A stretch of 64,000 nucleotides of DNA. It comes from a virus. Below, in pieces: positions 3,900 through 63,918 of the stretch. Position 1 is the stretch's first letter; each line of letters opens with the position of its first letter. The position numbers were made by a program, and so were the translations under genes. The stretch covers positions 32,001-96,000 of IMG/VR virus record IMGVR_UViG_3300050821_001858. The stretch is one strand, 5' to 3'. The notes below the pieces were generated by a model, which saw nothing but the letters and a program-made list of their open reading frames with translations, searched no databases and was not told where the DNA came from.

Positions 3900-5298
3900 A
3901 ACATCGATATTATCAAACCTTATTACCAACGAAGAATACATCCGAAAAGTCTTTCCTTATCTCAAAAAAGAGTACTTCATGGACGGTGCTGAAGCTACCG
4001 TTTTCCATGTGATCAAAGAATACTTTGACAAGTACAATAAACGCCCCCTTATTCAGGTAATGCAATCTGAATTGGCGGAATATAACCTGAGTACTAAGGA
4101 ATTTGATCAGGTAAAATCTGTCGTTGAAAGTATTAAGTCTCTTGATAGCGTAAAACCAGATTTGGAGTGGCTTGTTGACACCACAGAACAGTGGTGTCAA
4201 ACGCAAGCTATTCATGGTGCCATCCTTCAGTCGATGGATATCATTTCGGATGACAAAAAACCCCGGAACGCAATTCCGGGGTTGTTGCAAGATGCTTTAG
4301 CGGTTTCATTTAATAGCGACGTTGGACTTGATTTTTATGATCATGCTGATTATTGGTATGATTTAACTCATAGTCGTTTACCGCGTATACCTTTTGATAT
4401 TGATTATCTGAATAAAATCACCAAAGGTGGTTTACTCCCCAAGACGTTGAACATCATTATTGGTGGTGTTGGTTTTGGTAAATCGCTTTGGATGTGTCAT
4501 ATGGCAGGCGCTAACCTGCTACAAGGTAAAAAAGTCTTGTATATTACCATGGAGTTGTCGAAAGAACAAACCATGGAACGTATCTATGCAAATATGTTGA
4601 ATATTTCATTGGATATGATGCCTGATATCCCTAAAGAAATCTTCTTGAAAAAAGTTGAGAAGATGAAGGAAAAGACGGCTGGTCGTCTAAAAGTGGCAGA
4701 GTATCCTACTGGTTCCGCTGGTGCTGCTAACTTTCGACATCTTTTGAATGAACTGAAAGTCAAGCAGAATTTCGTTCCTGATATTGTTTATATCGATTAT
4801 TTGAATATTTGTTGTTCAAGTCGAGTAAAACTTTCGGGGAATCTAGGGATGTATAATTATGTCAAGTCAATTGCTGAAGAAATTCGTGCTCTCGCAGTTG
4901 AACAAAATATCCCTATTATCTCGGCTTCGCAGGTTAACCGTGAAGGGTTTAGATCGTCTGATCCGGGTATGGATGATATTTCGGAATCCTTTGGACTAGC
5001 AGCAACAGCCGATCTGATTATTATCATCATTCTGTCCGAAGAGTTAATAGCTCTAAACCAATATATGGTCAAGCAAGGAAAGAACCGGTACGCTGACGTT
5101 AATCGGTTCAATAAGTTCGTAGTTGGGGTAGATAAACCAAAGATGCGTCTTTATAATGTGGAAGCGCATGCTCAATCGAGAACTATAGAGGAACCAACCG
5201 TTGTTCAATTAGAAGCCCCCGTTGATTATGAGAAGTCTCTTATCGATGCTTTAGGATCGCTGGTTGAACCGGAACCTGAATGGAGTCAATATGGATAA
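3889..5298 (+). CDS. 41: Replicative DNA helicase (T4 gp41-like)
   Basis: GGVGFGKS Walker A, YITMELS, IDYLNI, ISESFGLAATAD, KNRY. Confidence 0.96.
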   Translation: MRTETSILSNLITNEEYIRKVFPYLKKEYFMDGAEATVFHVIKEYFDKYNKRPLIQVMQSELAEYNLSTKEFDQVKSVVESIKSLDSVKPDLEWLVDTTEQWCQTQAIHGAILQSMDIISDDKKPRNAIPGLLQDALAVSFNSDVGLDFYDHADYWYDLTHSRLPRIPFDIDYLNKITKGGLLPKTLNIIIGGVGFGKSLWMCHMAGANLLQGKKVLYITMELSKEQTMERIYANMLNISLDMMPDIPKEIFLKKVEKMKEKTAGRLKVAEYPTGSAGAANFRHLLNELKVKQNFVPDIVYIDYLNICCSSRVKLSGNLGMYNYVKSIAEEIRALAVEQNIPIISASQVNREGFRSSDPGMDDISESFGLAATADLIIIIILSEELIALNQYMVKQGKNRYADVNRFNKFVVGVDKPKMRLYNVEAHAQSRTIEEPTVVQLEAPVDYEKSLIDALGSLVEPEPEWSQYG

Positions 5299-5470
5299 AT
5301 CATCAACAACGTTAGAAGCGCTTTTTTGGGATATGGAACGCGCAATGGTAAAATGTATGAGTTATCATACTTTTTGGAATTATAAAGCTTTGATACCTGA
5401 GGTTAGTAATGGGAGTAATATTACTTCTTTACAATGGGACATGTTGTATAATGTTTACTTTAATGAATGA
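5291..5470 (+). CDS. Small aromatic-rich protein (dispersed family)
   Basis: 59 aa, ends LYNVYFNE. Confidence 0.55.
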   Translation: MDKSSTTLEALFWDMERAMVKCMSYHTFWNYKALIPEVSNGSNITSLQWDMLYNVYFNE

Positions 5471-6015
5471 AGACGGAAAGCAACTTGTTCATGTCCTGAT
5501 TTTGATATACAAGTGTATGTGTATAGTCCTAAATTAAGGAATTCTTGAAAAGCTTTATATTCCCCTTCCTCAAAACCAGTATATCCACAAAATTCATCGA
5601 ATAGAATAATAGTACCATCTCGTAATTGATCTTTAATTGTATTAAGAACATATGAAGTTGAAGAATATAGATCAGCATCCATATGTAAAAAGGCAACTGA
5701 ATCAGTTTGTTCTTTGAGGAAGGTTTCAAGAGTATCTTGAAATAGACCTATCACAAGATGAACGTTGGAGGGTAAGTCTTTCGGAGGATCACATTTAAAA
5801 TGCCCTTTGTCATAGCCGTTACGCCAATTTTCGGGTAATCCTTCGAATGAATCAAAACCATAAACAGTACGATTGGGTAAATGGTTGGCTATTCTTCGGA
5901 TTGAGCCTCCTGTTCCTACTCCAAATTCCATGATCATTCCATCCTCGGAGGATTGAGATAGAATTTCTTCAAGGGTTTTGCCTTCAGTTCCTTCAATTTT
6001 ATCTATGAGTGACAT
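5455..6015 (-). CDS. Class I SAM-dependent methyltransferase (TylF/MycF-like)
   Basis: MEFGVGTG, GFDSFEGLP, LHMDADLYSS, LFDEF; likely start MSLIDK at 6015. Confidence 0.85.
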   Translation of the reverse strand: MSLIDKIEGTEGKTLEEILSQSSEDGMIMEFGVGTGGSIRRIANHLPNRTVYGFDSFEGLPENWRNGYDKGHFKCDPPKDLPSNVHLVIGLFQDTLETFLKEQTDSVAFLHMDADLYSSTSYVLNTIKDQLRDGTIILFDEFCGYTGFEEGEYKAFQEFLNLGLYTYTCISKSGHEQVAFRLHSLK

Positions 6016-6020
6016 AGGAT

Positions 6021-6035
6021 TATTTAGTCTAAATA
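6021..6035. promoter_or_regulatory. Bidirectional T4-late-type promoter (CTAAATA on both strands)
   Basis: Palindrome TATTTAG-T-CTAAATA between divergent ATGs at 6015 and 6040. Confidence 0.6.
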
Positions 6036-6039
6036 ATGA

Positions 6040-8112
6040 ATGTTCCTGATAGATGAAGAAGTCATTTTTGAAGCTGAAGAGCCTAAAGAACAAGAAAAGC
6101 CCCAAAAGCTGACTAAACAGGGTTATTTTGACCATGTAGAGGACTTGATTTTTCGTCATGGAGAAAAAGGTTATAAGGACGCTCTAAAAGTATTGGATAA
6201 AACATATGGGTTTGTTAAGGGAAGAAATAAAGGAATTAACGTCTCTACTAAATTTGACGGTAGTCCGGGAATACTTTGGGGACATGCAAACGGTAAATTC
6301 TTCGTATCCACGAAATCTTTTTTTAATCAATCCCCAAAACTCAATTTTACTACAAACGATATCCAATCCAATCATGGAAAGTCTAAGGGACTTACAACGC
6401 GCCTTCAACAAGCACTGAAATATCTCCCGGAAGTTACTCCTAAGAAGGGTATATTCCGAGGGGATTTGATGTTCACTAAGGATGATATAGAGCACGCCAA
6501 TGGAAATATCAAATTCACTCCAAACACTCTATCATACAATGTACCCGATGCCTCCGAAGAAGGTCAAAAGATTCTTAAGGCTAAGATCGGCATTGTCCCT
6601 CATATGGAATATGAGGAACAGCCTAATGGGTCATTAAAGGCTCGTTTCGATCTTTCCCCTTCTCGGTTTAAGAAGTCTGATAATGTGCATATGATCGATC
6701 CTCAATTGAAGGGTCCTCAGGAAATGCATCCTGAACGAGAAAAAGACTATATTGATAATATTAATCAGGCACAGAAATTAAAATCCGAGTTGGACAGTAA
6801 TCACTCCTTTATGGCGATTGAAGGTCATCAGGATTTATTACTCGGCTATATCAATAATTGCGTCAAGGAAGGCAAGCCCAAGTCAGTTGGGGGCTATATC
6901 TCGTTCTTGACCAAGAAAGCCGGGGAACATATTGGTAGTGTCAAGCAGGACAAAACTAAGAGTAAAGTTCAAAAGGAACTTGATGATGAAATCTTCAAGG
7001 TAAATCAGAATAAAAAGGGTCTTGATACCCTATTCAAGGTACATGGGCATCTTGCGAAGGCAAAGAAAGCCCTTACTGATACCTTAGGCAAGAATTCCCC
7101 CTATAAAGAAACAGTGTTGGATAAACCGGCAAAGCCTGAGGGTTTTGTTGCATCTGTCGATGGTCAACCGGTGAAGCTGGTAGACCGGTCGAAATTCTCT
7201 GCGCAAAATTTCGAATGGAACAATAAGGTTAATCCCGAAGATAATCCTCTTGTTTTGACATTTGGACGTATGAATCCAGCAACAAAGGGTCATGGTAAGC
7301 TTCTCGATAAAGCTGATGACGTTGCTCGTCGTATTGGAGCAAAGGCGAAGACAGTCCTAACCAATACTCAGGATAAGAAGAACAATCCTCTTACTCCCGC
7401 TGAAAAGCTTAAATGGGCAAAGACCCTATTCCCCGGAAAAGATATCGCCTTGGCGTCACCTGATAAAGGGACGATCATTGCTCAGTTGCAACATGCTCAT
7501 CATTCAGGTGTGCAGGATATGACGATTGTTACTGGTTCTGATAAGGCTAAGATGTATCAGGATTTGATCAACAAGTATAATGGTCCAAGTAAAAACCATC
7601 TATTCAACTTCAAGAGAGCCCGGATCGTGGTTGCTAACCGTAATAAGGGTGGTAAACCCGGTAGTGAGGACCCGGAGGATGCATCAGCTACAAGAGCACG
7701 TGATGCAGCTATGAAGGATGATTTCAACGAATTCAAGAAAGTGATGCCTAAGGGAGTGTCGGATGACGCTACCAAGGAAGTATATCATACGGTAAGAGCA
7801 AATGCCGGTGTTGTCAAAATTGACGACAAAACAGATGCTCATGCTTTGGTTATTCTCTCAAAGCGACACGATGATATCGGTAAACAGGCTAAGAAAGAGG
7901 TAGAACGACGTAAAACTCATGGTATCTGGACAGGTCATATTCATGAAGATGGTAATAAAGTAAATGATCCTAATAAGAGATTGTTTGCTACCAAGTCAGC
8001 GTTTGATGCATATGCATCAGATACCCCTGATCAATCAACGAAAATACCTAATTATCAAGCGAACCTTGAAACAATTAGAAAAGTAATGAAAAAGAAAGCC
8101 CTTAAATCCTAA
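6040..8112 (+). CDS. T4-like phage protein with C-terminal cytidylyltransferase-like domain
   Basis: DHVEDL, STKFDGSP, PEGFV..VKLVDR..FS..NF, then TFGRMNPATKGH (HxGH-like). Confidence 0.85.
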   Translation: MFLIDEEVIFEAEEPKEQEKPQKLTKQGYFDHVEDLIFRHGEKGYKDALKVLDKTYGFVKGRNKGINVSTKFDGSPGILWGHANGKFFVSTKSFFNQSPKLNFTTNDIQSNHGKSKGLTTRLQQALKYLPEVTPKKGIFRGDLMFTKDDIEHANGNIKFTPNTLSYNVPDASEEGQKILKAKIGIVPHMEYEEQPNGSLKARFDLSPSRFKKSDNVHMIDPQLKGPQEMHPEREKDYIDNINQAQKLKSELDSNHSFMAIEGHQDLLLGYINNCVKEGKPKSVGGYISFLTKKAGEHIGSVKQDKTKSKVQKELDDEIFKVNQNKKGLDTLFKVHGHLAKAKKALTDTLGKNSPYKETVLDKPAKPEGFVASVDGQPVKLVDRSKFSAQNFEWNNKVNPEDNPLVLTFGRMNPATKGHGKLLDKADDVARRIGAKAKTVLTNTQDKKNNPLTPAEKLKWAKTLFPGKDIALASPDKGTIIAQLQHAHHSGVQDMTIVTGSDKAKMYQDLINKYNGPSKNHLFNFKRARIVVANRNKGGKPGSEDPEDASATRARDAAMKDDFNEFKKVMPKGVSDDATKEVYHTVRANAGVVKIDDKTDAHALVILSKRHDDIGKQAKKEVERRKTHGIWTGHIHEDGNKVNDPNKRLFATKSAFDAYASDTPDQSTKIPNYQANLETIRKVMKKKALKS

Positions 8113-23495: not shown

Positions 23496-23542
23496 ACGCA
23501 TTCCCTAAGGGCGTGGCGTTCAACTCGACCACCTTCCCACCA
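23452..23542 (+). tRNA. tRNA-Tyr(GTA), atypical D and T arms
   Basis: GGGAAGG/CCTTCCC, ATGCG-CTGTAAA-CGCAT, V-arm, CCA. Confidence 0.78.
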
Positions 23543-23563
23543 TTTTTCGCTTGACAAAAGTTT

Positions 23564-23638
23564 GCCTCTATCGTATAGTGACTATTACACCACCTTTGTA
23601 ACGTGGATACTTCAGTTTGATTCTGAATAGGGGCTCCA
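23564..23638 (+). tRNA. tRNA-Thr(TGT)
   Basis: GCCTCTA/TAGGGGC, loop TTTGTAA, T-loop TTTGATT, CCA. Confidence 0.8.
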
Positions 23639-23660
23639 CTCTAAATTAGGAGAATATATC

Positions 23661-24182: not shown

Positions 24183-24580
24183 TTTATGCGGTTCTCTAAG
24201 TACGAGATTGAATTAGGGTGATCCCTTTGCCGCGCCAGTTTATGGGAAGTACTTTCTTCGTGTGGTCGATCCATCACGCAATGTATCAACCTATTTCGCA
24301 TGTCATCATATCCTTGATTGACTTTGTGACACGCTTCCCATACCTTTTAGGAGAGAGTGATGTTACCAGATGGTTTAATGAATATAGATACTTCAGAGTA
24401 TAATGGTAATATTGTCATAGAAATGATGATGAGTTTTTATTGGGGAGAAAATTTTCGAAATACACATACTAATTTAAATCGAATTGGTTGGACAGAAATT
24501 CCGCTGAATATAATGTTTCCTCAAACATATAATGTTCGGGATTATCGACATTACGTTAATCGGTTTTTTTATAAGGATGT

Positions 24581-24781
24581 GTGATGTTTAGTAATGAAGA
24601 TAGAGACTATAAAAATCCTCAGATGTTGACTTCTACTCCACATACAGTTGGAGCGAAATGTTTAGAAATTGATGTGATGAAGTCGTATAATATAAGTTTT
24701 CCTCCTATACAAAATATATGGGGAGGATTTTATCAAACTGTGTCTGTGATAAGATATCTTCGTCAGTTTTTTGATGAATAG
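24581..24781 (+). CDS. Small aromatic-rich protein (dispersed family)
   Basis: Ends YLRQFFDE; stop TAG straddles tRNA-Trp 5' end. Confidence 0.55.
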   Translation: MMFSNEDRDYKNPQMLTSTPHTVGAKCLEIDVMKSYNISFPPIQNIWGGFYQTVSVIRYLRQFFDE

Positions 24782-24853: not shown

Positions 24854-24859
24854 GTTTAT

Positions 24860-24952: not shown

Positions 24953-25153
24953 ATGGAGTATATACCTTATGTGGTTAGAATTATGATCAAACAATTTTGG
25001 CATGATCGATGGAAATTGCTCACTAAAGAATATGATTGGGACTACGAATATCTCTTTGGAGAGGGATTAGATTTTCCGGCAATGCCATGGGATCAATTTG
25101 GTCAAGTTCATAATGTAATGATGAAAACAATTTCAGATAGTATATTTTCTTAG
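24953..25153 (+). CDS. Small aromatic-rich protein (dispersed family)
   Basis: AGGA RBS; ends ISDSIFS. Confidence 0.55.
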   Translation: MEYIPYVVRIMIKQFWHDRWKLLTKEYDWDYEYLFGEGLDFPAMPWDQFGQVHNVMMKTISDSIFS

Positions 25154-28095: not shown

Positions 28096-28272
28096 ATGTA
28101 TTTTCAAACAACATCAAAAGCTATTAAGCAATGGTTACTTGATAGTAGAATATCTCTTATCTATGAAAGATATGATAACCCATTTAATGATTTTTTTCTC
28201 CGGTTATATCAAACACAGATTAATAATAATGTACATTTTGTAATTCGACAACATTTATTTACGCGCGATTAA
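28096..28272 (+). CDS. Small aromatic-rich protein (dispersed family)
   Basis: 58 aa read manually, AGAGGA RBS, ends IRQHLFTRD; stop inside tRNA-Val. Confidence 0.5.
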   Translation: MYFQTTSKAIKQWLLDSRISLIYERYDNPFNDFFLRLYQTQINNNVHFVIRQHLFTRD

Positions 28273-29080: not shown

Positions 29081-29320
29081 ATGCTAAGCGGATATGGGTT
29101 GACAACGGCTCACATTTTGTATAGAATACCGGACTACCAGAACATCCTTCAAACGTTTGTCTGGCAAGAATTTGACTTTCATCCTGAGTATCCTCATTTG
29201 AGGAAGTTTCTTGTCTTCTGGCATAAGAAGATTGAAGGACCGATCTTTAAGGTCGAAGTTGCTCATGCTGGTTATGAAAACAAGATTGAACTTGCAAAGG
29301 ATATCTGGAAATTACAATGA
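29081..29320 (+). CDS. usg: Usg-family protein (alphaproteobacterial)
   Basis: GYGLTTAHILYRIPD..LQTFVWQEFD..PEYP.L..FL.FW...IEGPI..V.VAH. Confidence 0.88.
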   Translation: MLSGYGLTTAHILYRIPDYQNILQTFVWQEFDFHPEYPHLRKFLVFWHKKIEGPIFKVEVAHAGYENKIELAKDIWKLQ

Positions 29321-29535
29321 ATATGATTAAAGATATAATTGAAGAGTTGTATGGAAATATGTTCGATGCAACTAATACATCAACAATTTATGATTGGCGT
29401 AGTGCTTTTGAATATTATAAAGTAATAGGATATGATGAAATGAGATATCTGGATATACGACGATCAGAATTTTCCCAGATGCCCTTAGGGTATATGTGGA
29501 ATAATCACGATAAGATTTTTAGATCAGTGGAATAA
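29317..29535 (+). CDS. Small aromatic-rich protein (dispersed family)
   Basis: ATGA-coupled, ends HDKIFRSVE. Confidence 0.55.
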   Translation: MNMIKDIIEELYGNMFDATNTSTIYDWRSAFEYYKVIGYDEMRYLDIRRSEFSQMPLGYMWNNHDKIFRSVE

Positions 29536-29858: not shown

Positions 29859-30044
29859 ATGATCCGTGATACGGAAGCTAGAGAAATTGAAAGATTGTAT
29901 GCTGTCTATGCAAAGACTGTAGGGTATTTTGGAGAAGCTTTGAAGACTATACCTGATCATCCTTTGACTTTTTTTCCTATTAAACCGTATCAACGTAGTA
30001 TTAGAAGATACATACAAGAGACAATAAGTTATTTTTTTAGTTAA
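29859..30044 (+). CDS. Small aromatic-rich protein (dispersed family)
   Basis: AGGTGA RBS, ends ETISYFFS. Confidence 0.55.
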   Translation: MIRDTEAREIERLYAVYAKTVGYFGEALKTIPDHPLTFFPIKPYQRSIRRYIQETISYFFS

Positions 30045-30683: not shown

Positions 30684-30944
30684 TACGCCTTTCCAGGGCG
30701 TCGTGTTAGGGGGGCAGCAATGTCCCCCTTTCTTTTATAAGGGAGATCAAGATGCGAGATTTTCGTAGAGGAAGAGAATATGGGCGTGTTGAGATTGTGC
30801 AGGTTTCTGTTGCTAACACAGCCAATACTGCTAATACGACAAGTAACACTAGTACAACCACCAATCCTTTAGCTAACGTTGTAAATCAAGTAGCTAATGT
30901 GGGTAGTATCTTTTCAAGTTTAGGTAATCTATTCAAACGTTAAT

Positions 30945-40158: not shown

Positions 40159-40772
40159 ATGCTTTTTTAACTTGATCTACCTTTCGATTTGTGGTATAAA
40201 TATCTTGCTGCAATGCAGCATTTCATTTAAACTCTAGACGAAAGGAAATGATTATGAAGAAGATGTTTGTAATGGCGGCTCTTGCCGTTGCTTTAGTCAA
40301 TCCGGTTTTTGCTGCGGAGACTGTTTCGAAGGTTCATTATAAGAGCCCGAAGACCCCGATGAAGGTATACTCGCCTAAGTATTACTTTCCGACAACGACT
40401 GCCCCGTATGATCATGATTTCCAGCTTGGTGCTCAGATTTACGGGTAAGGTTTAAGGGGCATAAGTGCCCCTTTTCATTTGGAGATACTAATGAATCCTT
40501 TAGTTTATTGGTATAAGAAAAACCTTGATAATAAAATCGTAAGTTTCCGTGATAGTTGGAGCGGGATTTTTGTTCTTTCAATTCCCGATAATAGTTGGTC
40601 CCGGTGGCATCATTTTCTTCCTGTTTCAACTACTAGAATGTATACGTTTGCCTATCGACCCAATTCATTGTTCGATGAATAAATAAGGATATGAATATGA
40701 TTAACAAAGGAGATTACCTCATGACGATATAAGGAAGCAATTGGGCTTCCTATATTCTCATAGGAGGTAAGT

Positions 40773-40988: not shown

Positions 40989-41443
40989 AATCCCCCTTTT
41001 ACATCATGAGGATCATATGAACATATTCTTCAATATACGTCCATATACATCTAGACCTTATATGTTGGATTCTGATACACATTCGCCTAATCTAGAAAGA
41101 TATATAAGTAGGTCAGCCATTAATTTTGTGAGGGAAGTTTTTCCTCATGCCATAAACACGTGTGGAACATTACAACATTTCTATACGATTATGAATGACT
41201 ATTTCACGTGTATATTAGCTGAAGGATGATCATGATACAATTAATGTATGTTGAATTGTATAAGTCTAAATTAATTCAATCAGGATCGATGTCTGGTCGT
41301 TTAGAACGTGAATTAGACATTGATACAACATCAATAAGACGTGTTTTTGACAATCATTATCGGGCTGAGATGCATTTTGTTGCTGATGTACTAGGTTTGT
41401 TTACCGATATATTCGCCCCCGACTAAGGGGGCTTTTTTTTGCC

Positions 41444-42918: not shown

Positions 42919-43190
42919 GCTATCTATCAGTTAATAAGAATGAACTTCAACGAGATTTGAAACTAGCTATTGCCGAGATTGCTTATCATAACGATGAAGG
43001 TGTGCCCCGTAAAGCTATTATTACGTTGCAGCGTGAATATATTCCAGAACATGATAGATATCGTATTGATGAAATTGTTAATCAAGAAAGCAGGGGCGAT
43101 GTTATTAAAGTTTGGGATGTTAATCATTCGGCTTGGCGTCTTATTCCTCTTGCGCATGTAGTATATGTACAAATGAAAGATGGCTGGTGA
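42915..43190 (+). CDS. WYL_2/SH3-like T4-type hypothetical protein
   Basis: TL..EYIP...VWDV...AWR motif. Confidence 0.65.
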   Translation: MSYLSVNKNELQRDLKLAIAEIAYHNDEGVPRKAIITLQREYIPEHDRYRIDEIVNQESRGDVIKVWDVNHSAWRLIPLAHVVYVQMKDGW

Positions 43191-43976
43191 AAAAATTTAT
43201 ATGCATACATTTCCTCATTCGATCCAGGGACCCACACAACGTGTTTATGCTAAGTTGCGTGATCGAATAATATGTTATAGTTGGATGTATACAGAACGAT
43301 GGGATAACAACGTACTTAATTCTATTGTTGAAACTTTAGAACATCATGGGATTTTCGATGAAGAATGACCTTAGTTGTATACGAGATTATGGCAACAATT
43401 TACGTATGGATTGTGAGAATAAAACATATAATAGAATAGACTTGGTTTTATCTCATTTACTTGATGATGTTGGTCTATTTGCTCTATTTAATATGTTTTG
43501 GGATTTTAATCTGAGGGGAAATCTTGATCAGTACTTACAAAACGAAAAGATTTGGGCAAAAAGATGAAATATTATCTTATTCAAACACTTTCACAACACT
43601 CTATAAGCTATTTGATATCGACGGAGGAAGTGGTATCGAATGCGGCGATACAGGAAGCGATTGAGCAGGGTGTTATTCGAGAATATCAGCAAGAATTTTT
43701 GGGGGAAAGGATCGTCGGTCTTCAAGAGATTACCGAAGATGAGATGAAGAAACGTATACCTATTAAAGATGAAGAAAAATTTGATCAAGGCTAGAGACAT
43801 TCGAGATACAGTTTGGGATATCTATTATTCCTATGTTCATTTGATTGCCCATAAAATTCAATTTGAACATATATTTGATTTTATTCCGAATATTGCTGAT
43901 TATAATTTAGTTGAAATTCAGTGGGATATGCCTTTATGGAATCCCGTTTTGAGTGCATTGAGAGATAGTAAGTTTT

Positions 43977-44534
43977 ATGACAAATAGATTTGTGATATCA
44001 GATACACATTTTTTTCATACCAAGTGTTGGGACACATTCAAGAGGGACGATGGTAGTCCCCTTCGACATTTTACCTCGACTGAGGAAATGAATGAAACAA
44101 TGATCAACAACTGGAACGCAGTTGTGAACCACGATGATACTGTTTATCATTTGGGGGATGTTACTTGGGAGTATAAGAAACCATTTAATGAACTAATGCA
44201 TCATTTAAAGGGACGGAAAATCCTTATCCTTGGAAATCACGACAAACTTTCTAAGAAGGTACCAGTTCTTCTAGATCATTTTGAGCGTATTGAACTTTGG
44301 AAGGGTTTTCATGAATTAGGATGTACTTTTATCCATATTCCAATTAATATTAATGACTTACGTGATGGTGATATATGTGTTCACGGACATATTCATTATC
44401 GGCATTATATGAATAAGGCTGGCTTGCTTGATCCTCGTTATATCAATGTTTCGGTTGAACAAACAAACTATGCTCCTGTCCCGTTTGATATTTTGAGAGA
44501 TATGATTGAAACAAGAAGGAGAGTTATAAAATGA
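43977..44534 (+). CDS. Calcineurin-like metallophosphoesterase
   Basis: ISDTHF.H, HLGD, GNHD, HGHIH, INVSVE. Confidence 0.9.
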   Translation: MTNRFVISDTHFFHTKCWDTFKRDDGSPLRHFTSTEEMNETMINNWNAVVNHDDTVYHLGDVTWEYKKPFNELMHHLKGRKILILGNHDKLSKKVPVLLDHFERIELWKGFHELGCTFIHIPININDLRDGDICVHGHIHYRHYMNKAGLLDPRYINVSVEQTNYAPVPFDILRDMIETRRRVIK

Positions 44535-44974: not shown

Positions 44975-45546
44975 ATCATTTACAGCACTATTTTGAATTG
45001 GTTGGGCAGCTTGCTGAAGATATGCCGCTTTTTCACATCGATGAAATGATCGATGTATTGGCGGCTTGTGACGGGCGAGTGTTTGTGATCGGGCTTGGTG
45101 GCTCGGCTGGAAACGCTTCACATATGGTCAACGATCTTCGTAAGCTTTGTCATATCGAGGCTTATTCCCCCCTGGATAATGTATCGGAATTTTCAGCCGT
45201 TGTTAATGACGATGGTATTGATGGTTTCTTTGTTGATTGGTTGATCAATTCAAACTTCAACGAGCATGATATTCTGTTTGTCCTTTCCGTTGGAGGGGGA
45301 AACCGAGAGAAAAATGTATCGGTCTGTATTTCCCAGGCTGTTCTTCATGCTTACTCTATTCATGCCAAGATACTTGGTATTGTAGGAAGAGATGATGGTA
45401 CTACGGCTCAATATGGTGATCACGTGCTTGCTATACCACAAGCCGATGAAAAGTTAGTAACTCCGTTGTCCGAAGCTTTTCAAGCTGTGGTATGGCATTC
45501 TATGGTATCTGATCCTCGATTACAGGCTCGTCCAACAAAATGGTAA
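44971..45546 (+). CDS. gmhA: Phosphoheptose isomerase (SIS domain)
   Basis: GLGGSAGNASHMVNDLRK, NDDG, LSVGGG, EAFQAVVWH. Confidence 0.88.
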   Translation: MNHLQHYFELVGQLAEDMPLFHIDEMIDVLAACDGRVFVIGLGGSAGNASHMVNDLRKLCHIEAYSPLDNVSEFSAVVNDDGIDGFFVDWLINSNFNEHDILFVLSVGGGNREKNVSVCISQAVLHAYSIHAKILGIVGRDDGTTAQYGDHVLAIPQADEKLVTPLSEAFQAVVWHSMVSDPRLQARPTKW

Positions 45547-45755
45547 GTGCGATATTCAGGATTGATATTCTTCAAGAGACATTAAATAAACTTGGTGAAC
45601 GCATTTGGCGTTTGGATCAAGATTTGCGTAAGTTTGAGTATTTTAGGGATCGATATACCAAGAACGTATATGGTCCTATAAAATTTTATGATGAGTGGAT
45701 TCTTTTCAATACCATAAGAAGTTATGAATATAGGATTTTTGCCCGTGATGAATAA
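45540..45755 (+). CDS. Small aromatic-rich protein (dispersed family)
   Basis: Overlaps both neighbours; ends EYRIFARDE. Confidence 0.55.
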   Translation: MVSAIFRIDILQETLNKLGERIWRLDQDLRKFEYFRDRYTKNVYGPIKFYDEWILFNTIRSYEYRIFARDE

Positions 45756-46269
45756 AGCAGTGTATCTTGATAGAGATGGTGTTATTAATCCTTTAATTCA
45801 TCGGGGACCCCGAGGTTGGACACCCCCTTGGAATGTTCATGAGTTTTCTATATACCCATGGGTAAAGGAAGCAATCAAATCTTTAAAGAATGATGGCTTT
45901 ATGGTATTTGTGGTATCTAATCAACCGGACGTGTATTCACACGAAATGCCCTGGACGATGACCGGAACGATCAATCAGATTTTGCTTGACAATCTGGCGA
46001 TTGATGATATAATGACCTGTCATCAGCGTGGGAATTATAACTACAAGCCTAACCCAGGCATGTTAATTTCACTCCGGGACACCTATATTATCGACATGAG
46101 CGAATCATGGATGGTAGGTGATACTTGGAAAGACGCTGTTGCTGCACATATAGCTCATGTTCGTTATATACATCTCGGGGACGAAGACCCTGTTTCGTCT
46201 AGTGTGTTTGCTAAGGTACCAACTCTTAAAGAAGCTGTTCCTATTATATTAGACCCTGAGGCATTATGA
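45748..46269 (+). CDS. gmhB: Heptose bisphosphate phosphatase (HAD)
   Basis: LDRDGVIN, VVSNQPD, KPNPGM, SWMVGD..KD. Confidence 0.9.
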   Translation: MNKAVYLDRDGVINPLIHRGPRGWTPPWNVHEFSIYPWVKEAIKSLKNDGFMVFVVSNQPDVYSHEMPWTMTGTINQILLDNLAIDDIMTCHQRGNYNYKPNPGMLISLRDTYIIDMSESWMVGDTWKDAVAAHIAHVRYIHLGDEDPVSSSVFAKVPTLKEAVPIILDPEAL

Positions 46270-46490
46270 TGGCACCTAGACCATGGGAACCTGTTGGAAG
46301 ATATTACCTACTTGAATGGTGGGAAGATAATGTTACAGATTTAATGGGTGCGTTAGCACAATTATATAGTGTGGATATCTATGGTACTAATGCTCGTTTA
46401 ATACGTTTTGCTACTCAAAGATGGAATTTCATGCAATCAATAAAAGAACGAATCTCACGTTTACAAGATCAAATATATCGAAGAGGATAA
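46266..46490 (+). CDS. Small aromatic-rich protein (dispersed family)
   Basis: ATGA-coupled; ends QDQIYRRG. Confidence 0.55.
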   Translation: MMAPRPWEPVGRYYLLEWWEDNVTDLMGALAQLYSVDIYGTNARLIRFATQRWNFMQSIKERISRLQDQIYRRG

Positions 46491-46492
46491 AA

Positions 46493-50585: not shown

Positions 50586-51016
50586 CTATGAAACTTGGTA
50601 TATATGAAATTTTGAATGCGGTGAATACAAAAAAGACCAAAAAAGAAAGACTAGAAGAGCTACAAAAGCACACAAACAACGAGGTTCTTCAGACGCTTTT
50701 GAAGATGGCGTTTGATCCTGAGTTGAAATGGCGTTTACCTTTTGGTTCGCCTCCTTATACTCCGTCCCCTAATTTCGATCAACAGGGGATGTTGTATGGC
50801 GAAATGCGTCGTTTTTATATCTGGGCACGTATTGACGACCGGGGAGATCGTATTGCTCCTATTAAACGTGAACAGCTATGGATTGATCTTCTTGAACACC
50901 TTCACCCCGAAGATGCCAAGATTATCTGTGCTGTGAAGGATAAGAATTTACCTGATGTTTATCCTCATGTGACAAAGAAATTGGTAGCTGAAGCATGGCC
51001 AAATCTTTTACAATAA
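50582..51016 (+). CDS. Conserved T4-like hypothetical protein
   Basis: FDP..W.LP.G.PPY..KREQLWIDLLE.LHP.DA. Confidence 0.78.
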   Translation: MTMKLGIYEILNAVNTKKTKKERLEELQKHTNNEVLQTLLKMAFDPELKWRLPFGSPPYTPSPNFDQQGMLYGEMRRFYIWARIDDRGDRIAPIKREQLWIDLLEHLHPEDAKIICAVKDKNLPDVYPHVTKKLVAEAWPNLLQ

Positions 51017-51233
51017 AGAGTGTCAATTATCGAACTGATAATGATATACGAGATGGAATGGTCAATAGAATAGATAATGTCTATTCTGCTGATGAACATA
51101 CATATTGGGTTAAGATTATTGAGAAGTCTTATGAGGAATTTGTACGAGTGTGGAATTTAAGCACTGTTCTTCGCCCCCCTCGAATGTTAAATGAATTCAT
51201 TACTATATCTCATGCTATTTTTAAGGAGAAATA

Positions 51234-51470
51234 ATGCCAAACTATTGGGTTCGTAATAAGAAAACTGGTAAGTATGTTGCGGTGCTTTCAATGACCATCT
51301 CTGAGATGGAGACGTTCGAAAAGAAGGAATTGAAGGGTACTGATCTAGAGATAGCTGCTGGGGCTCCGGGAATCGGTTATTCGTTTCATCGTATGAAGCC
51401 TTCGGATGGTTTCAAGGATCGACTAAGAGATATCAAGAGATCACACCCAGGAAGTACAATAGACATTTAA
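51234..51470 (+). CDS. T4-like small protein (MPxY start, FmdB-like)
   Basis: MPNY..RNKKTG...GFKDRLRDIKRSHPGS. Confidence 0.65.
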   Translation: MPNYWVRNKKTGKYVAVLSMTISEMETFEKKELKGTDLEIAAGAPGIGYSFHRMKPSDGFKDRLRDIKRSHPGSTIDI

Positions 51471-51861
51471 TGTATAAATGGGTTTTTCTCTATTACATCG
51501 TATTTGGGTTTATTGTTTTACATAACATATATGGTAAAGAGGTTTATGTAAATTCGGGAGAGATTATGATAATAGCCCCTCCCGATGCTATTTCCCCACG
51601 TGGTACCGGTTCTAAAGTGCTTGTACATGATACTTGGTTATACATAAGAGAAATTCCAAAAGATGTCATTAGAGCGATTAAAGATGAAACGTAAAAAGAA
51701 GAAGCGTGATATATCACGTATCAGACGTAAGATTGATAATTATATCTATGGAAAGTATTTTGATACTCTTAGTAAATATCAAGATCAAGATGATATTAGA
51801 TTTCCTATGCCCTCTTGGGCTATTATGAGTTATCAAACTGAAGAATATATGAGATATATGA

Positions 51862-52542
51862 ATGGCGAAATTTATTCATCAAAACTATGAATCGGCTGAC
51901 CTCAAGAAAGAAGATACTGATCAAGGTAGGTTCTATATTACCCCTGAGGGAGATCGCTACCCTTCTGTGACTACAGTCCTATCCAAGTCTCGGGATCAAA
52001 CTGGTCTTAAAAAGTGGCGAGAGGCTATTGGTAAAGAACAAGCCAATCAGATACTCAAACAGGCTCAGAATAGAGGAAACGCTGTACATTTATTAGCCGA
52101 AGAGTACATTAAGAACAATCCTAATTGGGCACGAGGGCACATGCCGTCCAATCTGGATTCCTTCAAGCAGTTCAAACTTTTGCTTGACACCAATCTCAAC
52201 CTAGTGTATGGTCAGGAACTTAGACTCTACTCCACCTTACTTCAGGCGGCTGGAACTGCTGACTTGGTGTGTAGGTGGAATGGTGAAAATGCCATTGTTG
52301 ACTTTAAGACAGCACGTAAAGAGAAGACCGAAGAATTTGCATTAGGATATCTGTTACAAGCTACAGCTTATTCAATAATGGTAGAAGAACGTTTTGGACT
52401 AGTCTGCCCTCGTATAGTGGTATTGCTAGCCAGAGATCACGAAAATATACCGCAGGTTTTCATCAAGGAAACCGCTGATTATCGTCAGCGAGTGACCGAT
52501 ATCTTCAAGAATTACACCTTGAAGACAATAAATAAAGGATGA
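51862..52542 (+). CDS. PD-(D/E)XK exonuclease (Cas4/RecB-like)
   Basis: YPSVTTVL, RGNAVH, QE..LYS, AGTAD, IVDFKT, QATAY. Confidence 0.9.
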   Translation: MAKFIHQNYESADLKKEDTDQGRFYITPEGDRYPSVTTVLSKSRDQTGLKKWREAIGKEQANQILKQAQNRGNAVHLLAEEYIKNNPNWARGHMPSNLDSFKQFKLLLDTNLNLVYGQELRLYSTLLQAAGTADLVCRWNGENAIVDFKTARKEKTEEFALGYLLQATAYSIMVEERFGLVCPRIVVLLARDHENIPQVFIKETADYRQRVTDIFKNYTLKTINKG

Positions 52543-58106: not shown

Positions 58107-58657
58107 GGAAACTGGCGTCATTTTGACGCTGCCGCGCCCAAAGCGTCATTATGATGTGTTTGTGTCAAACAACATCCCCCTTGAGGAAAGAACCAAGTAT
58201 GATTGTGGGTTTTTCGATCCGCAGGAAAATGATTTCCTCAAGCAGGGTCGGGGTGATGGGGAGTATCCTCTTGATTCCGTTAGGGTGTTTGTGGTATGAT
58301 TGAACAAAATTTTTTCGTCAAAAGACTTGGACGTATTCATGAGAAAACGACTAAAAAGCTTAAAATTTTTGTAGATTTTAAGCTTTATCCTTTTCATCCT
58401 TTTGATATGGCTAGAAATATTGATAATGTTAACCTTATGTATAATATTCAACTTCACGATCATGAATGGCAAATATTGTACGAACAGTGGTTTCAGAGGT
58501 AAAATGTTTAATTATGATCGATTCGATGAAGTGAAAAGGGTGTTGTATATTGCAACAAATATGCATTTAGGTAATCCTTATGTATATTATAAAGGTATTG
58601 ATCTATCGATACCTTTATATCGAGGATGGGGAACTATCCTTAGAACAGGATTGACAA

Positions 58658-59505: not shown

Positions 59506-59536
59506 TTGACATCTGACCCAAGATGCAGTATAAATA
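59506..59536 (+). promoter_or_regulatory. Composite sigma70 / T4-late promoter for tmRNA
   Basis: TTGACA-N17-TATAAA; the -10 is also TATAAATA. Confidence 0.7.
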
Positions 59537-59540
59537 AGAC

Positions 59541-59833
59541 ACTGGACGATTAGTTGATGGTTCAACTAAACACGAAACACTCGGGGGCAGTACCCGATAC
59601 CTCCACCAAAAGCACATACCCTACCCAAAGGGTTGTTGACAGGGTTGGAAGGATCAACGCACAGGATGTGCTTTTGATGGGGGTAAAATAGGTTCGACTT
59701 CGTGTGGAATGGAATCGGATAGTCGGTCGGTATATAACTGTCGCATCAAACGACAACTTTGCTCGGGAACTCGCCCTCGCGGCGTAATTCCCTACGGAGT
59801 TCGGTAGCTTCCTTGGCAACAGAAAAGCTACCA
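59541..59833 (+). ncRNA. ssrA: Two-piece (circularly permuted) tmRNA
   Basis: Acceptor piece TCGGG-GGCAGTA-CCCGA-TACCTCC-A-CCA ends 59608; coding piece starts GGGGGTA at 59679 (G3:U70); tag (V)ASNDNFARELALAA-stop 59740-59787. Confidence 0.93.
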
Positions 59834-59870
59834 TTTCACCATGTGTTTAACGAAAATAGGAGTGTATACA

Positions 59871-60377
59871 ATGAGTTTGAATTCGAATGTTCGTAAGTTT
59901 GACCCTGTAAAGGGTATGGCGTTTCAGGGCGACCTCGCCATCGTTCCGGTTCCGGCTTCCGTGAAGCTTAACACCGCCAACGAAATCCAGCCCAAGAACG
60001 GCTACCTTGTTCTTCTTGAGGGTGAGTTGACTGGTCATCACCATGCAATTCCGGTCCTTGAGCGTCCGACCACTCAGGTTGAGCCGAAGACCACCCCGAA
60101 GAAGACCAGCAAGACTGTTGAAAACCTTTTCGACCTTGCTACTCAGGCTCCGTCCACCGCCAAGATGTATCGTGATGCAAACGTCGCATCAGAGATGCAG
60201 CGCCTCGGCATCCTTACCCGTACCGACCTGATTGTCGGTGTGCTTGAGGTTTCCGAAGGTAACGGTGTTATCCTTCGCCATCACGAGCATGATGGTATCC
60301 ACCTTCCGAAGGGCACTTACTACATCGGTCGTCAGGTCGAAAGTGCTTTCAATGAAGAGCGCCGGGTCGCCGACTAA
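59871..60377 (+). CDS. His-rich conserved phage protein
   Basis: QGD, EGELTGHHH, HHEH..I.LP.G.Y...RQ.E. Confidence 0.75.
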   Translation: MSLNSNVRKFDPVKGMAFQGDLAIVPVPASVKLNTANEIQPKNGYLVLLEGELTGHHHAIPVLERPTTQVEPKTTPKKTSKTVENLFDLATQAPSTAKMYRDANVASEMQRLGILTRTDLIVGVLEVSEGNGVILRHHEHDGIHLPKGTYYIGRQVESAFNEERRVAD

Positions 60378-62011: not shown

Positions 62012-62239
62012 ATGATTGATATCAAAATAAAGTCTGAAACTTTTACCACCGACGTTGAAAAAATTGTCGCAGGCGGTAGTAAATATTTGGATGCTATTTT
62101 ACGTTGGGCTGATGAAAAGGGGGTGGAAATGGAGTATATCTCATCCCTTATTGATGAGAATCCAGCTATTAGGCTTAAGCTTCAGAGGGAAGCTGAAGAC
62201 CTACACTTCCTAAAGAAGGCTCGAAGGGTCCGAATCTAA
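62012..62239 (+). CDS. 33: Late transcription coactivator (T4 gp33-like)
   Basis: F..DVEKIV...YLDAI...E.E.I..LI...KLQ.EA..LHFLK; synteny with 59 and 32. Confidence 0.85.
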   Translation: MIDIKIKSETFTTDVEKIVAGGSKYLDAILRWADEKGVEMEYISSLIDENPAIRLKLQREAEDLHFLKKARRVRI

Positions 62240-62273
62240 ATATCCTCAGGTAAATCCAAACTTGAGGTAACCA

Positions 62274-62732
62274 GTGAGGATTGTATTTGAGGGAAAGCCA
62301 AAGAAAATCAGTTTAAAGAAATGTCGGCAAGCCCTGCACTTCTTTGCTTCGATATTATTTCCTCGTCGGATCAATACTCGGCTACCTCTGGTTGTAAAGT
62401 TTATACCCGGCTACCTTAAGAAAGAAGATTGTAAAGGAGCTACCGATTGGGTGGAAGCAGATGCCCCCTTGTTTTCTTTCGAATTAGATGATAATCTATC
62501 GTCTCGGGAAACCCTGAAGGTTATCGCTCACGAGTTAGTTCATGTTAAACAGATGCGCCTAGGGGAATTGGTCGAGACTAATCATGCATCGAAGTTCCTT
62601 TATAAGAACAAATCGTTTGATATCGCCAAGATTGATTATTGGGACTTGCCTCATGAGATAGAGGCATATGGTAGAGAAGTAGGTTTATATACTCGTTATC
62701 ATGATATCGTTGTGAAAAAGAGAAAGAAATGA
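62274..62732 (+). CDS. HExxH metallopeptidase-like protein
   Basis: IAHELVHVKQ..YWDLPHEIEAY. Confidence 0.8.
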   Translation: MRIVFEGKPKKISLKKCRQALHFFASILFPRRINTRLPLVVKFIPGYLKKEDCKGATDWVEADAPLFSFELDDNLSSRETLKVIAHELVHVKQMRLGELVETNHASKFLYKNKSFDIAKIDYWDLPHEIEAYGREVGLYTRYHDIVVKKRKK

Positions 62733-63123
62733 ACCCTCTTAGATTTTATAGACGTGATACTGGTAGATGGTACCAGATACAATTATACTTTCAAACTCAT
62801 TTCATGACAGATGGGTGGCTATCCGATGTGGTTTATAATTATGCTGCCAGGGTGTTGACTAAAAGACTTGTTGGACTTGACCCCCCTCGTCATTATACTA
62901 TAGGTATGTTAAAACTAATGAGTGAGAGTATCTACAATGAAACATCCTCTTAACCTTAGAATTTTTACTGAACGTCCTAGTATCGGTCTTGTATATAGAA
63001 GTGCTTATCTTTATCATGAATGGATGACGCAAAGTGTTTATTATGAAGTAAATAATATTCTCCGTAGAAGAGAATGGTTATTCGATATATATGACCAACT
63101 TAGAACGATAAACAGGCATCTTT

Positions 63124-63693
63124 ATGCACGCTGATGAAGCGTTGAATCTTTACATTGCCCTGAAACTTCATTTCTCATCAATGTCATATGACTATGATAG
63201 ATTTGGGGGTGAGATTAAAAATCCAGTGTCGGTTGAATGTCGTCCCGACAAGCTGAATTTTATGAAGCTGGCGAAAAAGAAAGACGTGTTCGGGCGGCTG
63301 GTATCCAACCTGATCGTAAATCCGCGTGCACATATTTCCTCGATAATCGGCAAAGAAGGAGAGGATATCTATTTCGCTTGGAAGCGCCGGCATGAAAGTT
63401 TGAAGTATCATATCAAAGAAGAAATGGAGAAACTGAAGGAAATCTTCCCCGAAGGTTTTAAGGTTGTGCAGCATCAACACCCCGAAGCCTTTAAGATGTA
63501 TATTCGAAAGGATGTGTCTATTGAAGCTTTAGCGATCCTGAACAATTTTACTAATATGTTTCGAGCATGGGATAGAGATTTGAGAGATGATCCAGTGTGG
63601 GTAAACATGCGTATTCCACTTCTGAAATATGGGAAATGGTTACATTATGATCGACAGGAAATGAGTAAGATTGTGAAGGAAGCTTTGTTATGA
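63124..63693 (+). CDS. 59: Helicase loader (T4 gp59-like)
   Basis: YIALKLHF..YDY..GG, D...F.KL, SIE, LKY; synteny. Confidence 0.88.
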   Translation: MHADEALNLYIALKLHFSSMSYDYDRFGGEIKNPVSVECRPDKLNFMKLAKKKDVFGRLVSNLIVNPRAHISSIIGKEGEDIYFAWKRRHESLKYHIKEEMEKLKEIFPEGFKVVQHQHPEAFKMYIRKDVSIEALAILNNFTNMFRAWDRDLRDDPVWVNMRIPLLKYGKWLHYDRQEMSKIVKEALL

Positions 63694-63880
63694 GGGGGAT
63701 AGACAAGAGAGAGTATGAATTTATGCAGGGATGGATGGCTCGTACTCAACGATACTATCCATATATGACCAGTTATGCTTTGTGGGAGGGACCACGGAAC
63801 GGTGATCCTCTGATCGTTTTCCACCCCCACCCGCCGTTGCGCATCCAAACCTACATGGACCAGATTTTCGAAAAAAACCC

Positions 63881-63918
63881 TTGACAGGACAAGGGGTTAG
63901 CTGTATACTCCCTAAATA
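63881..63918 (+). promoter_or_regulatory. Tandem sigma70 and late-type promoters upstream of gene 32
   Basis: TTGACA-N17-TATACT then CTAAATA. Confidence 0.65.

What the first reader, a model, noticed from the sequence alone, without database searches (positions are those of the whole stretch)
5291..63884. Dispersed family of ~25-30 short aromatic-rich ORFs wedged between genes
Seen: 55-80 aa, AT-rich, F/Y/W/I-rich ORFs fill gene junctions and usually overlap both neighbours. Examples start at about 5291, 24357, 24581, 24953, 28096, 29317, 29859, 40479, 41017, 41226, 43180, 43358, 43769, 45540, 46266, 48233, 48399, 50995, 51663, 53417, 54129, 58296, 58504, 61627, 61830, 62729, 62938 and 63690. 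They share no obvious DNA repeat but end in a common pattern, hydrophobic-x3-(I/L/x)(F/Y/W)-charged: YLRQFFDE, ISDSIFS, HDKIFRS, FTDIFAPD, HHGIFDEE, NEKIWAKR, EYRIFARDE, QDQIYRRG, SNKIWRKD, SHAIFKEK, NGEIYSSK, SESIYNE, MDQIFEKN. They even split the heptose operon gene by gene. Inference: one highly diverged paralog family that spreads into junctions, possibly a diversified library of binders or anti-defence proteins with a common C-terminal docking helix.
Basis: partly seen in the sequence, partly recalled or inferred. Interest (0 to 1): 0.78.

Follow-up and report, generated by a model that had tools for sequence, protein, structure and literature searches.

The report
Small phage genes sharing a tail
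An uncultured marine T4-like phage packs about 30 real, tiny, aromatic-rich genes of unknown function between its larger genes; many end in the same short pattern, but no test shows that they are one gene family.

Summary
The window is part of a 113-kb contig of an uncultured marine T4-like myovirus. All 28 ORFs exist. They are 53-79 aa and about 34% GC. Their codon usage is that of genes, not of spurious frames, and they join their neighbours through short overlaps.

The C-terminal pattern (hydrophobic, then F/Y/W, then 1-5 mostly charged residues) is real. It occurs in 26 of 95 small genes against about 8-11 expected. It replicates outside the window (7/26, P=0.0025). It is not enriched in the long genes, in other phages' small ORFs, or in T4. 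Carriers also have more aromatic residues elsewhere in the protein than selection bias explains, so they form a coherent class.

Homology could not be shown. Pairwise, iterative, de novo motif and anchored-profile tests all stayed at control level. PHROGs, Pfam and two searches of billions of proteins found only the queries themselves. AlphaFold2 predicts helical proteins in which the pattern ends a C-terminal helix. Part of the charged tail is dual-coded by the next gene's ribosome-binding site or start codon.

A distant syntenic relative lacks these genes at the matching junctions.

Verdict: a lineage-specific class of small accessory proteins. The single-family and docking-helix readings remain unproven. 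This scan has noted similar shared tails in other phages.

The parts
5291..5470 (+). small ORF, 59 aa, tail VYFNE, after gp41 helicase
   Evidence: strict pattern yes; codon score 0.05; 8-nt overlap with the upstream gene
24357..24584 (+). small ORF, 75 aa, tail FFYKDV, in tRNA region
   Evidence: strict pattern yes; codon score 0.09; 4-nt overlap with the next ORF
24581..24781 (+). small ORF, 66 aa, tail QFFDE
   Evidence: AF2 with the set as alignment: C-terminal helix 45-64, pLDDT 83-86; no coupled downstream CDS
24953..25153 (+). small ORF, 66 aa, tail SIFS, between tRNA-Asn and tRNA-Glu
   Evidence: loose pattern only; FYW 21%
28096..28272 (+). small ORF, 58 aa, tail LFTRD; doubtful gene
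   Evidence: codon score -0.03; stop lies 10 nt inside tRNA-Val
   Evidence: strict pattern yes; codon score 0.13
29317..29535 (+). small ORF, 72 aa, tail IFRSVE, ends 1 nt before tRNA-Lys
   Evidence: strict pattern yes; codon score 0.10
29859..30044 (+). small ORF, 61 aa, tail YFFS, ends 1 nt before tRNA-Pro
   Evidence: loose pattern
30752..30943 (+). extra pattern-bearing ORF, 63 aa, tail LFKR; not aromatic-rich
   Evidence: strict pattern yes; FYW only 6%, so probably a chance carrier
40479..40682 (+). small ORF, 63-67 aa (ATG at 40491), tail LFDE
   Evidence: strict pattern yes; 90-nt gap downstream, so the tail is not dual-coded
   Evidence: codon score -0.11; pattern absent
41226..41426 (+). 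small ORF, 64-66 aa, tail IFAPD
   Evidence: its last codons form the 5' arm of a terminator-like hairpin at 41415-41432
43180..43368 (+). small ORF, 62 aa, tail IFDEE
   Evidence: codon score 0.17; the next gene's ATG lies in the D-E codons
43358..43567 (+). small ORF, 69 aa, tail IWAKR
   Evidence: strict pattern yes
43769..43987 (+). small ORF, 72 aa, tail FYDK
   Evidence: codon score 0.16; only itself among 5.8 billion proteins; ESM Atlas model pLDDT 0.46
45540..45755 (+). small ORF, 71 aa, tail IFARDE, between the SIS and HAD genes
   Evidence: AF2 single sequence: helical hairpin H2-41/H46-70, pLDDT 74, pTM 0.42
46266..46490 (+). small ORF, 73-74 aa, tail IYRRG, between the HAD and transaldolase genes
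   Evidence: the R-R-G codons carry the SD of an ATG at 46493
   Evidence: codon score 0.14; pattern absent
   Evidence: pattern not at the C-terminus
50995..51234 (+). small ORF, 79 aa, tail IFKEK
   Evidence: the K-E-K codons are the AAGGAG SD of the gene at 51234
51663..51890 (+). small ORF, 75 aa, tail IYSSKL
   Evidence: codon score 0.15; only itself in the 5.8-billion-protein database, where it was independently called as a 68-aa gene
   Evidence: regex not met
   Evidence: regex not met
58296..58502 (+). small ORF, 68 aa, tail WFQR
   Evidence: loose pattern; the Q-R codons carry the SD of the next gene
   Evidence: regex not met
   Evidence: regex not met; FYW 10%
   Evidence: regex not met; FYW 7%
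62729..62953 (+). small ORF, 74 aa, tail IYNETSS
   Evidence: strict pattern yes, but codon score -0.03; the next ATG lies in the N-E codons
62937..63134 (+). small ORF, 65 aa, tail LYAR, just upstream of gp59
   Evidence: strict pattern yes; codon score -0.01; gp59's ATG lies in the Y-A codons
63690..63884 (+). small ORF, 64 aa, tail IFEKNP, downstream of gp59
   Evidence: strict pattern yes; no coupled downstream CDS

Best explanation
These are ordinary genes in the mechanical sense: small, expressed with their neighbours, and translationally coupled to them. They belong to a lineage-specific accessory gene set of an uncultured marine T4-like myovirus.

About 26 (strict regex) to 32 (loose regex) of roughly 95 small genes on the contig form one coherent class. 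Members are 56-82 aa (one of 97), about 15% F/Y/W, about 34% GC, and have no relatives anywhere that I could find. They are predicted to be alpha-helical (two models). A C-terminal amphipathic helix of about 16-25 residues ends in a hydrophobic residue plus F/Y/W, followed by 1-5 mostly charged residues.

My reading (inferred): the hydrophobic-aromatic pair is the last core anchor of that helix. The charged tail is a helix end that often also encodes the Shine-Dalgarno sequence or start codon of the next gene.

The class most likely arose by repeated gain at gene junctions, local duplication and very fast divergence of small helical binder-type proteins, of the host-takeover or anti-defence kind seen in other T4-like early regions. 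It may be one family or a few families; the present data cannot say.

Shown: the genes are real, the class and the pattern are real, the pattern is at protein level, and the genes are absent at matching junctions of a distant relative.
Inferred: common origin, binder function, early expression.
For: Gene status:
- The codon score separates these ORFs from spurious ORFs.
- Independent gene calls exist in the public protein database.
- Each fills its junction with 1-32 nt overlaps.

Pattern:
- z=5-7 against four nulls, and replicated out of sample.
- 3-4 fold above other phage loci, rejected frames, long genes and T4.
- Codons for the pattern vary synonymously.
- The rate is the same with or without a coupled downstream gene: 18/52 against 14/43.

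Coherence of the class:
- FYW outside the last 10 residues is 15.2% against 10.2%. The difference of 0.050 compares with 0.013 +/- 0.012 expected from selection bias (P=0.0005).
- 1 of 29 has any PHROG hit, against about 9-10 of 40 other small genes.

Helix:
- Hydrophobic periodicity runs back to -18 from the anchor. Pro is nearly absent from -11 to -1 (none at -10 to -7 or at -5) and enriched at -22 to -16.
- AF2 models.

Gain and duplication:
- L062 has the glycosyltransferase and the 365-aa gene's homologue adjacent, and its sugar genes contiguous.
- Pair 71042/71233 is 40% identical.
- Adjacent carriers are weakly enriched: 7 against 3.9, P=0.07.
Against: - No homology is detectable among members by phmmer, jackhmmer, Gibbs sampling or an anchored leave-one-out profile.
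- pI ranges from 4.6 to 11.3, and amphipathicity does not differ from other small genes.
- Only two structures were predicted, both of modest confidence (pTM 0.27 and 0.42).
- The regex was formalised after the data had been seen.
- With the loose regex the excess is only about 32 against 19-21 expected.
- There is no expression data and no close relative in which to measure selection.
Confidence: 0.5

Rival explanations
1. Docking-tail library. The bodies are unrelated, but the C-terminal hydrophobic-aromatic-acidic end is a short linear motif that docks all of them on one hub. The hub could be the phage sliding clamp gp45, as for the hydrophobic-acidic tails of T4 gp43, gp55 and gp33, or a host hub such as the beta clamp or RNA polymerase.
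For: [quoted passage not shown]
- The T4 gp55 tail read from the T4 record fits my regex.
- This phage's gp43, gp44 and UvsX are among only 7 long proteins that carry the pattern.
- The pattern is enriched at the very C-terminus and is independent of downstream coupling.
- Earlier scan notes report shared tails on unrelated small phage proteins elsewhere. These are leads only.
Against: - This phage's own gp33 (62012-62239; phrog_254, E=4e-12) ends in a hydrophobic stretch followed by a basic tail, and its gp55 ends in a long basic tail. The known clamp ligands here therefore do not share the small ORFs' tail.
- The pattern is degenerate, and the tail length varies from 1 to 5 residues.
- It sits at the end of a continuous predicted helix, not on a flexible linker.
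- No complex prediction could be run.
Confidence: 0.17
2. No shared biology. Unrelated small accessory genes look alike for three reasons. Aromatic-rich AT-rich coding raises the chance of a hydrophobic-aromatic pair. Helical proteins generally end soon after the last core residue. The next gene's SD or ATG forces G, E, K, R or D codons into the tail.
For: - Many tails are visibly dual-coded, with GGAGAG, AAGGAG or AGAGG as SD, or an ATG inside GAT-GAA or AAT-GAA.
- The strict pattern is somewhat commoner in coupled genes: 16/52 against 10/43.
- De novo motif search and the leave-one-out profile find nothing.
- The loose regex gives only z of about 3.
Against: - The long genes of this genome have the same downstream signals but carry the pattern at 3-10%.
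- Other tightly packed phage loci and T4 show 7-9%.
- Nulls that keep the last 1-3 residues still give z=5-6.
- The link between tail and aromatic-rich body exceeds selection bias.
- There is no T-rich tract upstream of start codons.
Confidence: 0.28
3. The ORFs are not genes but chance open frames in AT-rich spacers.
For: - Four carriers fall at or below the 95th percentile of spurious ORFs for codon score.
- 28096 runs into a tRNA gene.
- No homologues were found.
Against: - 28 of 32 carriers score above the 95th percentile of spurious ORFs.
- By my estimate, stop-free frames of 60-80 codons at 34% GC have a chance of under 1% each, yet they fill about 30 junctions on the coding strand exactly.
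- Start codons overlap upstream stops in the usual ATGA/TAATG manner.
Confidence: 0.05

Closest known systems
Variable small ORFs of the hyperplastic regions of T4-like phages (Comeau, Arbiol and Krisch 2014, PMC4122927)
   Same: Small, lineage-specific genes lie between conserved core genes of a T4-like genome. They are absent from a syntenic relative and are surrounded by replication genes, tRNA genes and auxiliary metabolic genes.
   Different: The genes do not lie in a few discrete regions: they sit singly or in pairs at many junctions, even between sugar-pathway genes. No PeSL-type promoter/stem-loop repeat flanks them. A subset shares a composition and a C-terminal pattern.
Sliding-clamp-binding C-terminal epitope of T4 gp43, gp55 and gp33 (PMC2988020)
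   Same: A hydrophobic-aromatic stretch with acidic residues at the extreme C-terminus, carried by otherwise unrelated proteins. The T4 gp55 tail fits the regex used here.
   Different: The T4 epitope follows a flexible linker and is nearly identical among its three carriers. Here the pattern is degenerate and ends a continuous helix, and this phage's gp33 and gp55 do not carry it.
Shared C-terminal tails on small phage proteins noted earlier in this scan (e1-2574528, e1-3441799, e1-298427; unchecked AI notes)
   Same: Many tiny, fast-diverging or unrelated early proteins fill gaps between genes and end in a common short helix or peptide. In one case the tail codons also provide the next gene's RBS and start.
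   Different: Those tails are reported as well-defined peptides of 6-12 residues. Here only 2-3 positions are constrained. No sequence relation to this phage was found.

Membership tests
Gibbs LLR is 237-244 against 236-246 for controls. Mean leave-one-out score of the anchored profile is below 0.
   Only two AF2 models could be made. Both are helical with a long C-terminal helix, at pTM 0.27 and 0.42. BFVD search gave no hit.
   One clear pair, window 71042/71233, at 40% identity. Adjacent carriers number 7 against 3.9 expected, P=0.07.
T4-type sliding-clamp-binding C-terminal epitope | Hydrophobic plus acidic peptide at the extreme C-terminus | tested here: met
This is a loose resemblance only.
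T4-type sliding-clamp-binding C-terminal epitope | Same tail on the phage's own gp43, gp55 and gp33 | tested here: not met
   The gp43 tail fits. gp33 (62012-62239) and gp55 end in basic tails.
T4-type sliding-clamp-binding C-terminal epitope | Epitope tethered by a flexible linker | tested here: not met
   Pro is nearly absent in the 11 residues before the anchor and helical periodicity runs back to -18. AF2 helices run to the penultimate residue.
T4-type sliding-clamp-binding C-terminal epitope | Physical binding to gp45 | not testable with these tools
   The structure tool folds single chains only.
Hyperplastic-region accessory ORFs of T4-like phages | Small lineage-specific genes between core genes, variable between relatives | tested here: met
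   Core genes gp43, UvsX, gp41, gp59, gp33, gp45, gp44 and gp62 were identified. There are no homologues in PHROGs, Pfam or the large protein databases. The genes are absent at matching junctions of L062.
Hyperplastic-region accessory ORFs of T4-like phages | Flanking PeSL promoter/stem-loop repeats | tested here: not met
   The direct repeats found in 20-64 kb are almost all tRNA arms; the one regulatory-looking family is a promoter-like motif, three of whose four copies follow tRNA-like 3' ends, and the remaining families are small and low-identity. None flanks the small ORFs.

The most novel reading that the evidence does not exclude
About 25-30 otherwise unrelated small early proteins of this phage carry a common C-terminal hydrophobic-aromatic-acidic docking end. 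It would recruit all of them to one hub, such as the phage or host sliding clamp, RNA polymerase or a protease adaptor. This would be a 'toolbelt' library of effectors, a design this scan has now noted in several unrelated phages and for which I know no description in the literature.
Probability: 0.15. Interest if true: 0.8.

Novelty: new variant of a known kind. Interest (0 to 1): 0.45.

Why it matters
Small early genes without relatives make up a large unexplained share of big phage genomes. Such genes are a known source of host-takeover and anti-defence factors.

A statistically real, lineage-specific end-pattern on about a quarter of one phage's small genes gives a handle for experiments. 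Tail peptides can be used as bait, and tail deletions are cheap to make.

If the same logic holds in the other phages where this scan noted shared tails, it would point to a general way in which phages organise their small effectors. If not, this case is a careful example of how composition and overlapping translation signals can make unrelated small proteins look like a family.

Tried and rejected
1. DNA-level cause of the pattern: rejected as the main cause.
- Codons vary synonymously.
- The rate is equal with and without a coupled downstream gene.
- Long genes with the same downstream signals lack the pattern.
- There is no T-rich tract before starts.
- It does explain part of the charged tail.

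2. Generic property of small phage proteins: rejected. Rates are 6.8% in 542 small ORFs of 61 other viral loci, 3/35 in T4 and 0/16 in the nearest gp43 relative.

3. Homology: sought and not found, by phmmer, jackhmmer with decoys, Gibbs sampling and an anchored leave-one-out profile.

4. Known families: none in PHROGs or Pfam.

5. Relatives.
- Megablast against phages found nothing.
- Viral-contig scans with three neighbouring proteins gave unrelated loci or one distant syntenic contig.
- The metagenome scan gave only hits of 27-33% identity and one 20-residue fragment.
- Two look-ups among 5.8 billion proteins returned only the queries.
- A full HMMER search of 1.84 billion representatives with the 71042/71233 pair returned only the pair and junk repeats.
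- The ESM Atlas gave nothing usable.

The 183-kb contig that holds the same proteins could therefore not be fetched.

7. Charge, pI and hydrophobic moment do not separate the class.

8. Late-promoter motif TATAAATA: only 2 copies in the window, fewer than the 5.6 expected by chance.

Full report
WHAT THE WINDOW IS

The window is bases 32001-96000 of a 113,066-bp IMG/VR viral contig estimated 63% complete. It encodes these T4-type proteins:
- gp43 DNA polymerase (44-45% identical to cyanophage polymerases), UvsX and the gp41 helicase;
- gp59 and gp33 (62012-62239);
- upstream of the window: gp45, gp44, gp62, gp55, gp46/47 and a helicase.

It also carries 30 tRNA genes and a tmRNA. Nearly all genes are on the + strand. 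No close relative exists in the phage, viral-contig or metagenome collections.

CHECK OF THE OBSERVATION

All 28 ORFs are present. They are 53-79 aa, AT-rich (most 27-38% GC, against 41% for long genes) and rich in F/Y/W (15.4% against 9.9%).

A codon-usage score trained only on genes of 150 aa or more gives:
- pattern-bearing small ORFs: mean 0.075;
- held-out windows of long genes: 0.142;
- spurious ORFs inside long genes: -0.179.

28 of 32 carriers exceed the 95th percentile of the spurious set. ORFs 28096, 62729 and 62937 are weak, and 41017 scores -0.11; 28096 also runs 10 nt into tRNA-Val. Two of the ORFs appear as independently called proteins in the public protein collection.

Starts typically overlap the upstream stop by 1, 4, 8, 11 or up to 32 nt. 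Stops overlap or abut the next start or a tRNA gene. This is the normal layout of translationally coupled phage genes. No direct DNA repeat accompanies them; the repeats found are almost all tRNA arms.

Cytidylyltransferase-like, SIS, HAD, transaldolase and glycosyltransferase genes lie at 44531-48233, with small ORFs between several of them.

IS THE C-TERMINAL PATTERN MORE THAN CHANCE?

- Among 95 small genes of the contig it occurs 26 times.
- Shuffles that keep each protein's composition give 7.7 +/- 2.7.
- Shuffles that also keep the last 1-3 residues fixed give 9.6-10.9 (z=5.2-5.7).
It is 20/358 in this genome's rejected frames, 7/104 in its long genes and 37/542 in small ORFs of 61 other viral loci.
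- T4's first 50 kb gives 3/35, and the nearest gp43 relative 0/16.
- A regex-free profile shows F/Y/W at 13-17% at positions 2-5 from the end, against about 9% further in. Charged residues are at 32-35% in the last two positions.

With the loose regex (no charge requirement) the excess is smaller: 32 against 19-21 expected.

PROTEIN LEVEL OR DNA LEVEL?

The codons of the pattern vary: ATT/ATA/ATC, CTA/TTA/TTG/CTT, TTT/TTC, TAT/TAC, TGG.

Many tails are nevertheless dual-coded:
- G-E, K-E-K, R-R-G and Q-R are read from Shine-Dalgarno sequences of the next gene;
- D-E, N-E and Y-A/Y-D contain its ATG;
- in 41226-41426 the last codons form a terminator stem.

This explains part of the charge. It does not explain the hydrophobic-aromatic pair:
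- the loose pattern is equally common with a coupled downstream gene (18/52) and without one (14/43);
- long genes with the same downstream signals carry it at 16-17% (loose) and 3-10% (strict);
- there is no T-rich tract before start codons.

IS THERE A COHERENT CLASS?

Yes. Outside their last ten residues, carriers have 15.2% F/Y/W against 10.2% in other small genes. They also have less G+A and more R than K. The aromatic difference (0.050) exceeds what selecting on an aromatic-containing tail would produce (0.013 +/- 0.012, P=0.0005). Lengths are narrow (56-82 aa, with one of 97).

Only 1 of 29 has even a weak PHROG hit. About 9-10 of 40 other small genes in the window do, among them gp33 and a thioredoxin-domain protein.

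Aligned on the aromatic anchor, hydrophobic residues recur at -1, -4/-5, -8, -11 and -18. Proline is nearly absent from -11 to -1 (none at -10 to -7 or at -5) and is enriched at -22 to -16. This is the signature of a terminal amphipathic helix of about 16-20 residues.

AlphaFold2 gives:
- for 24584-24778, a helix at 45-64 with pLDDT 83-86 and the rest uncertain;
- for 45540-45752, a two-helix hairpin at pLDDT 74 and pTM 0.42.

IS IT ONE FAMILY?

I could not show it.
- Within-set phmmer scores are not above shuffles.
- jackhmmer against the proteome plus five-fold decoys recovers only four small groups (38960/39284; 71042/71233; 62012 with a 137-aa protein; 80373/79949/40248).
- A Gibbs sampler finds no motif stronger than in non-carriers or shuffles.
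- A leave-one-out anchored profile has no predictive power upstream of the anchor.
- pI spans 4.6-11.3.
- Adjacency of carriers is only marginally enriched.

The pair at window 71042/71233 (40% identical, both with the pattern's variant) shows that local duplication does occur. Even this pair has no relatives among 1.84 billion representative proteins.

ORIGIN AT JUNCTIONS

The only syntenic relative found is L062, from a 107.8-kb viral contig, with proteins 25-46% identical. It keeps the order of at least nine flanking genes.
- Its sugar genes are contiguous, and the glycosyltransferase directly abuts the homologue of the 365-aa gene. This phage has three genes there (48233, 48399, 48595).
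- It has an unrelated 67-aa gene where this phage has 50995-51234.

The small genes are therefore gained, lost or replaced junction by junction. That is the behaviour described for hyperplastic regions of T4-like phages (PMC4122927), but here without PeSL-type repeats.

THE DOCKING IDEA

[quoted passage not shown] I read these tails from the T4 record, and the gp55 tail fits my regex. In this phage, gp43, gp44 and UvsX are among the seven long proteins that carry the pattern.

Against this reading:
- gp33 and gp55 of this phage end in basic tails;
- the pattern ends a continuous helix rather than sitting on a linker;
- no complex could be modelled.

I keep it as the most novel reading not excluded, at about 15%.

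VERDICT

One family, mobility and a docking function are unproven.

This scan has noted comparable shared tails on small proteins in other phages. Those are unchecked notes on other DNA, and no sequence relation to this phage was found.

Noticed in passing
window 23615-23642, 24829-24858, 31011-31040, 31896-31925, 37264-37293, 38179-38208: tRNA T-arm/acceptor-like 3' segments appear in the repeat families but have no ARAGORN call. They suggest further, unusual tRNA-like genes in the tRNA region.
   Followed up: no
window 62012-62239; genome 12435-13070: gp33 (phrog_254, E=4e-12) ends in a hydrophobic stretch followed by a basic tail, and gp55 ends in a long basic tail. Neither has the T4-type hydrophobic-acidic clamp epitope.
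   Followed up: partly
window 41415-41432: The last codons and stop of ORF 41226-41426 form the 5' arm of a GC-rich terminator-like hairpin followed by a T run. A sigma-70-like promoter follows at 41444-41472.
   Followed up: no
window 41481-42233, 56298-56702, 59516-59878; genome 17392-17919: The phage carries several translation-related genes: an M24 (methionine-aminopeptidase-type) peptidase, a protein with a ribosomal L7/L12 C-terminal domain hit, a tmRNA and a peptide deformylase.
   Followed up: no
L062:6698-16635: A distant syntenic relative (IMGVR_UViG_3300044949_001956) has a contiguous sugar-nucleotide gene block: cytidylyltransferase, a 325-aa ORF I did not scan, glycosyltransferase, the homologue of the 365-aa gene, a 194-aa ORF I did not scan. 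No interspersed small ORFs separate them.
   Followed up: partly
window 23537-23557, 31915-31935, 37990-38010, 45972-45992: A repeated motif ends in TTGACAA. Three of the four copies directly follow the 3' end of a tRNA or tRNA-like element, which suggests promoters placed right after tRNA genes (family D9).
   Followed up: no
window 38960-39268 / 39284-39610 and 11763-12221 / 12231-12770: Two adjacent paralogue pairs are unrelated to the finding (phmmer E=4e-5 and 1e-47).
   Followed up: no
window 5470-6040: A 570-nt stretch has no called + strand gene. A 234-aa ORF on the minus strand (5455-6159) overlaps it and was not examined.
   Followed up: no
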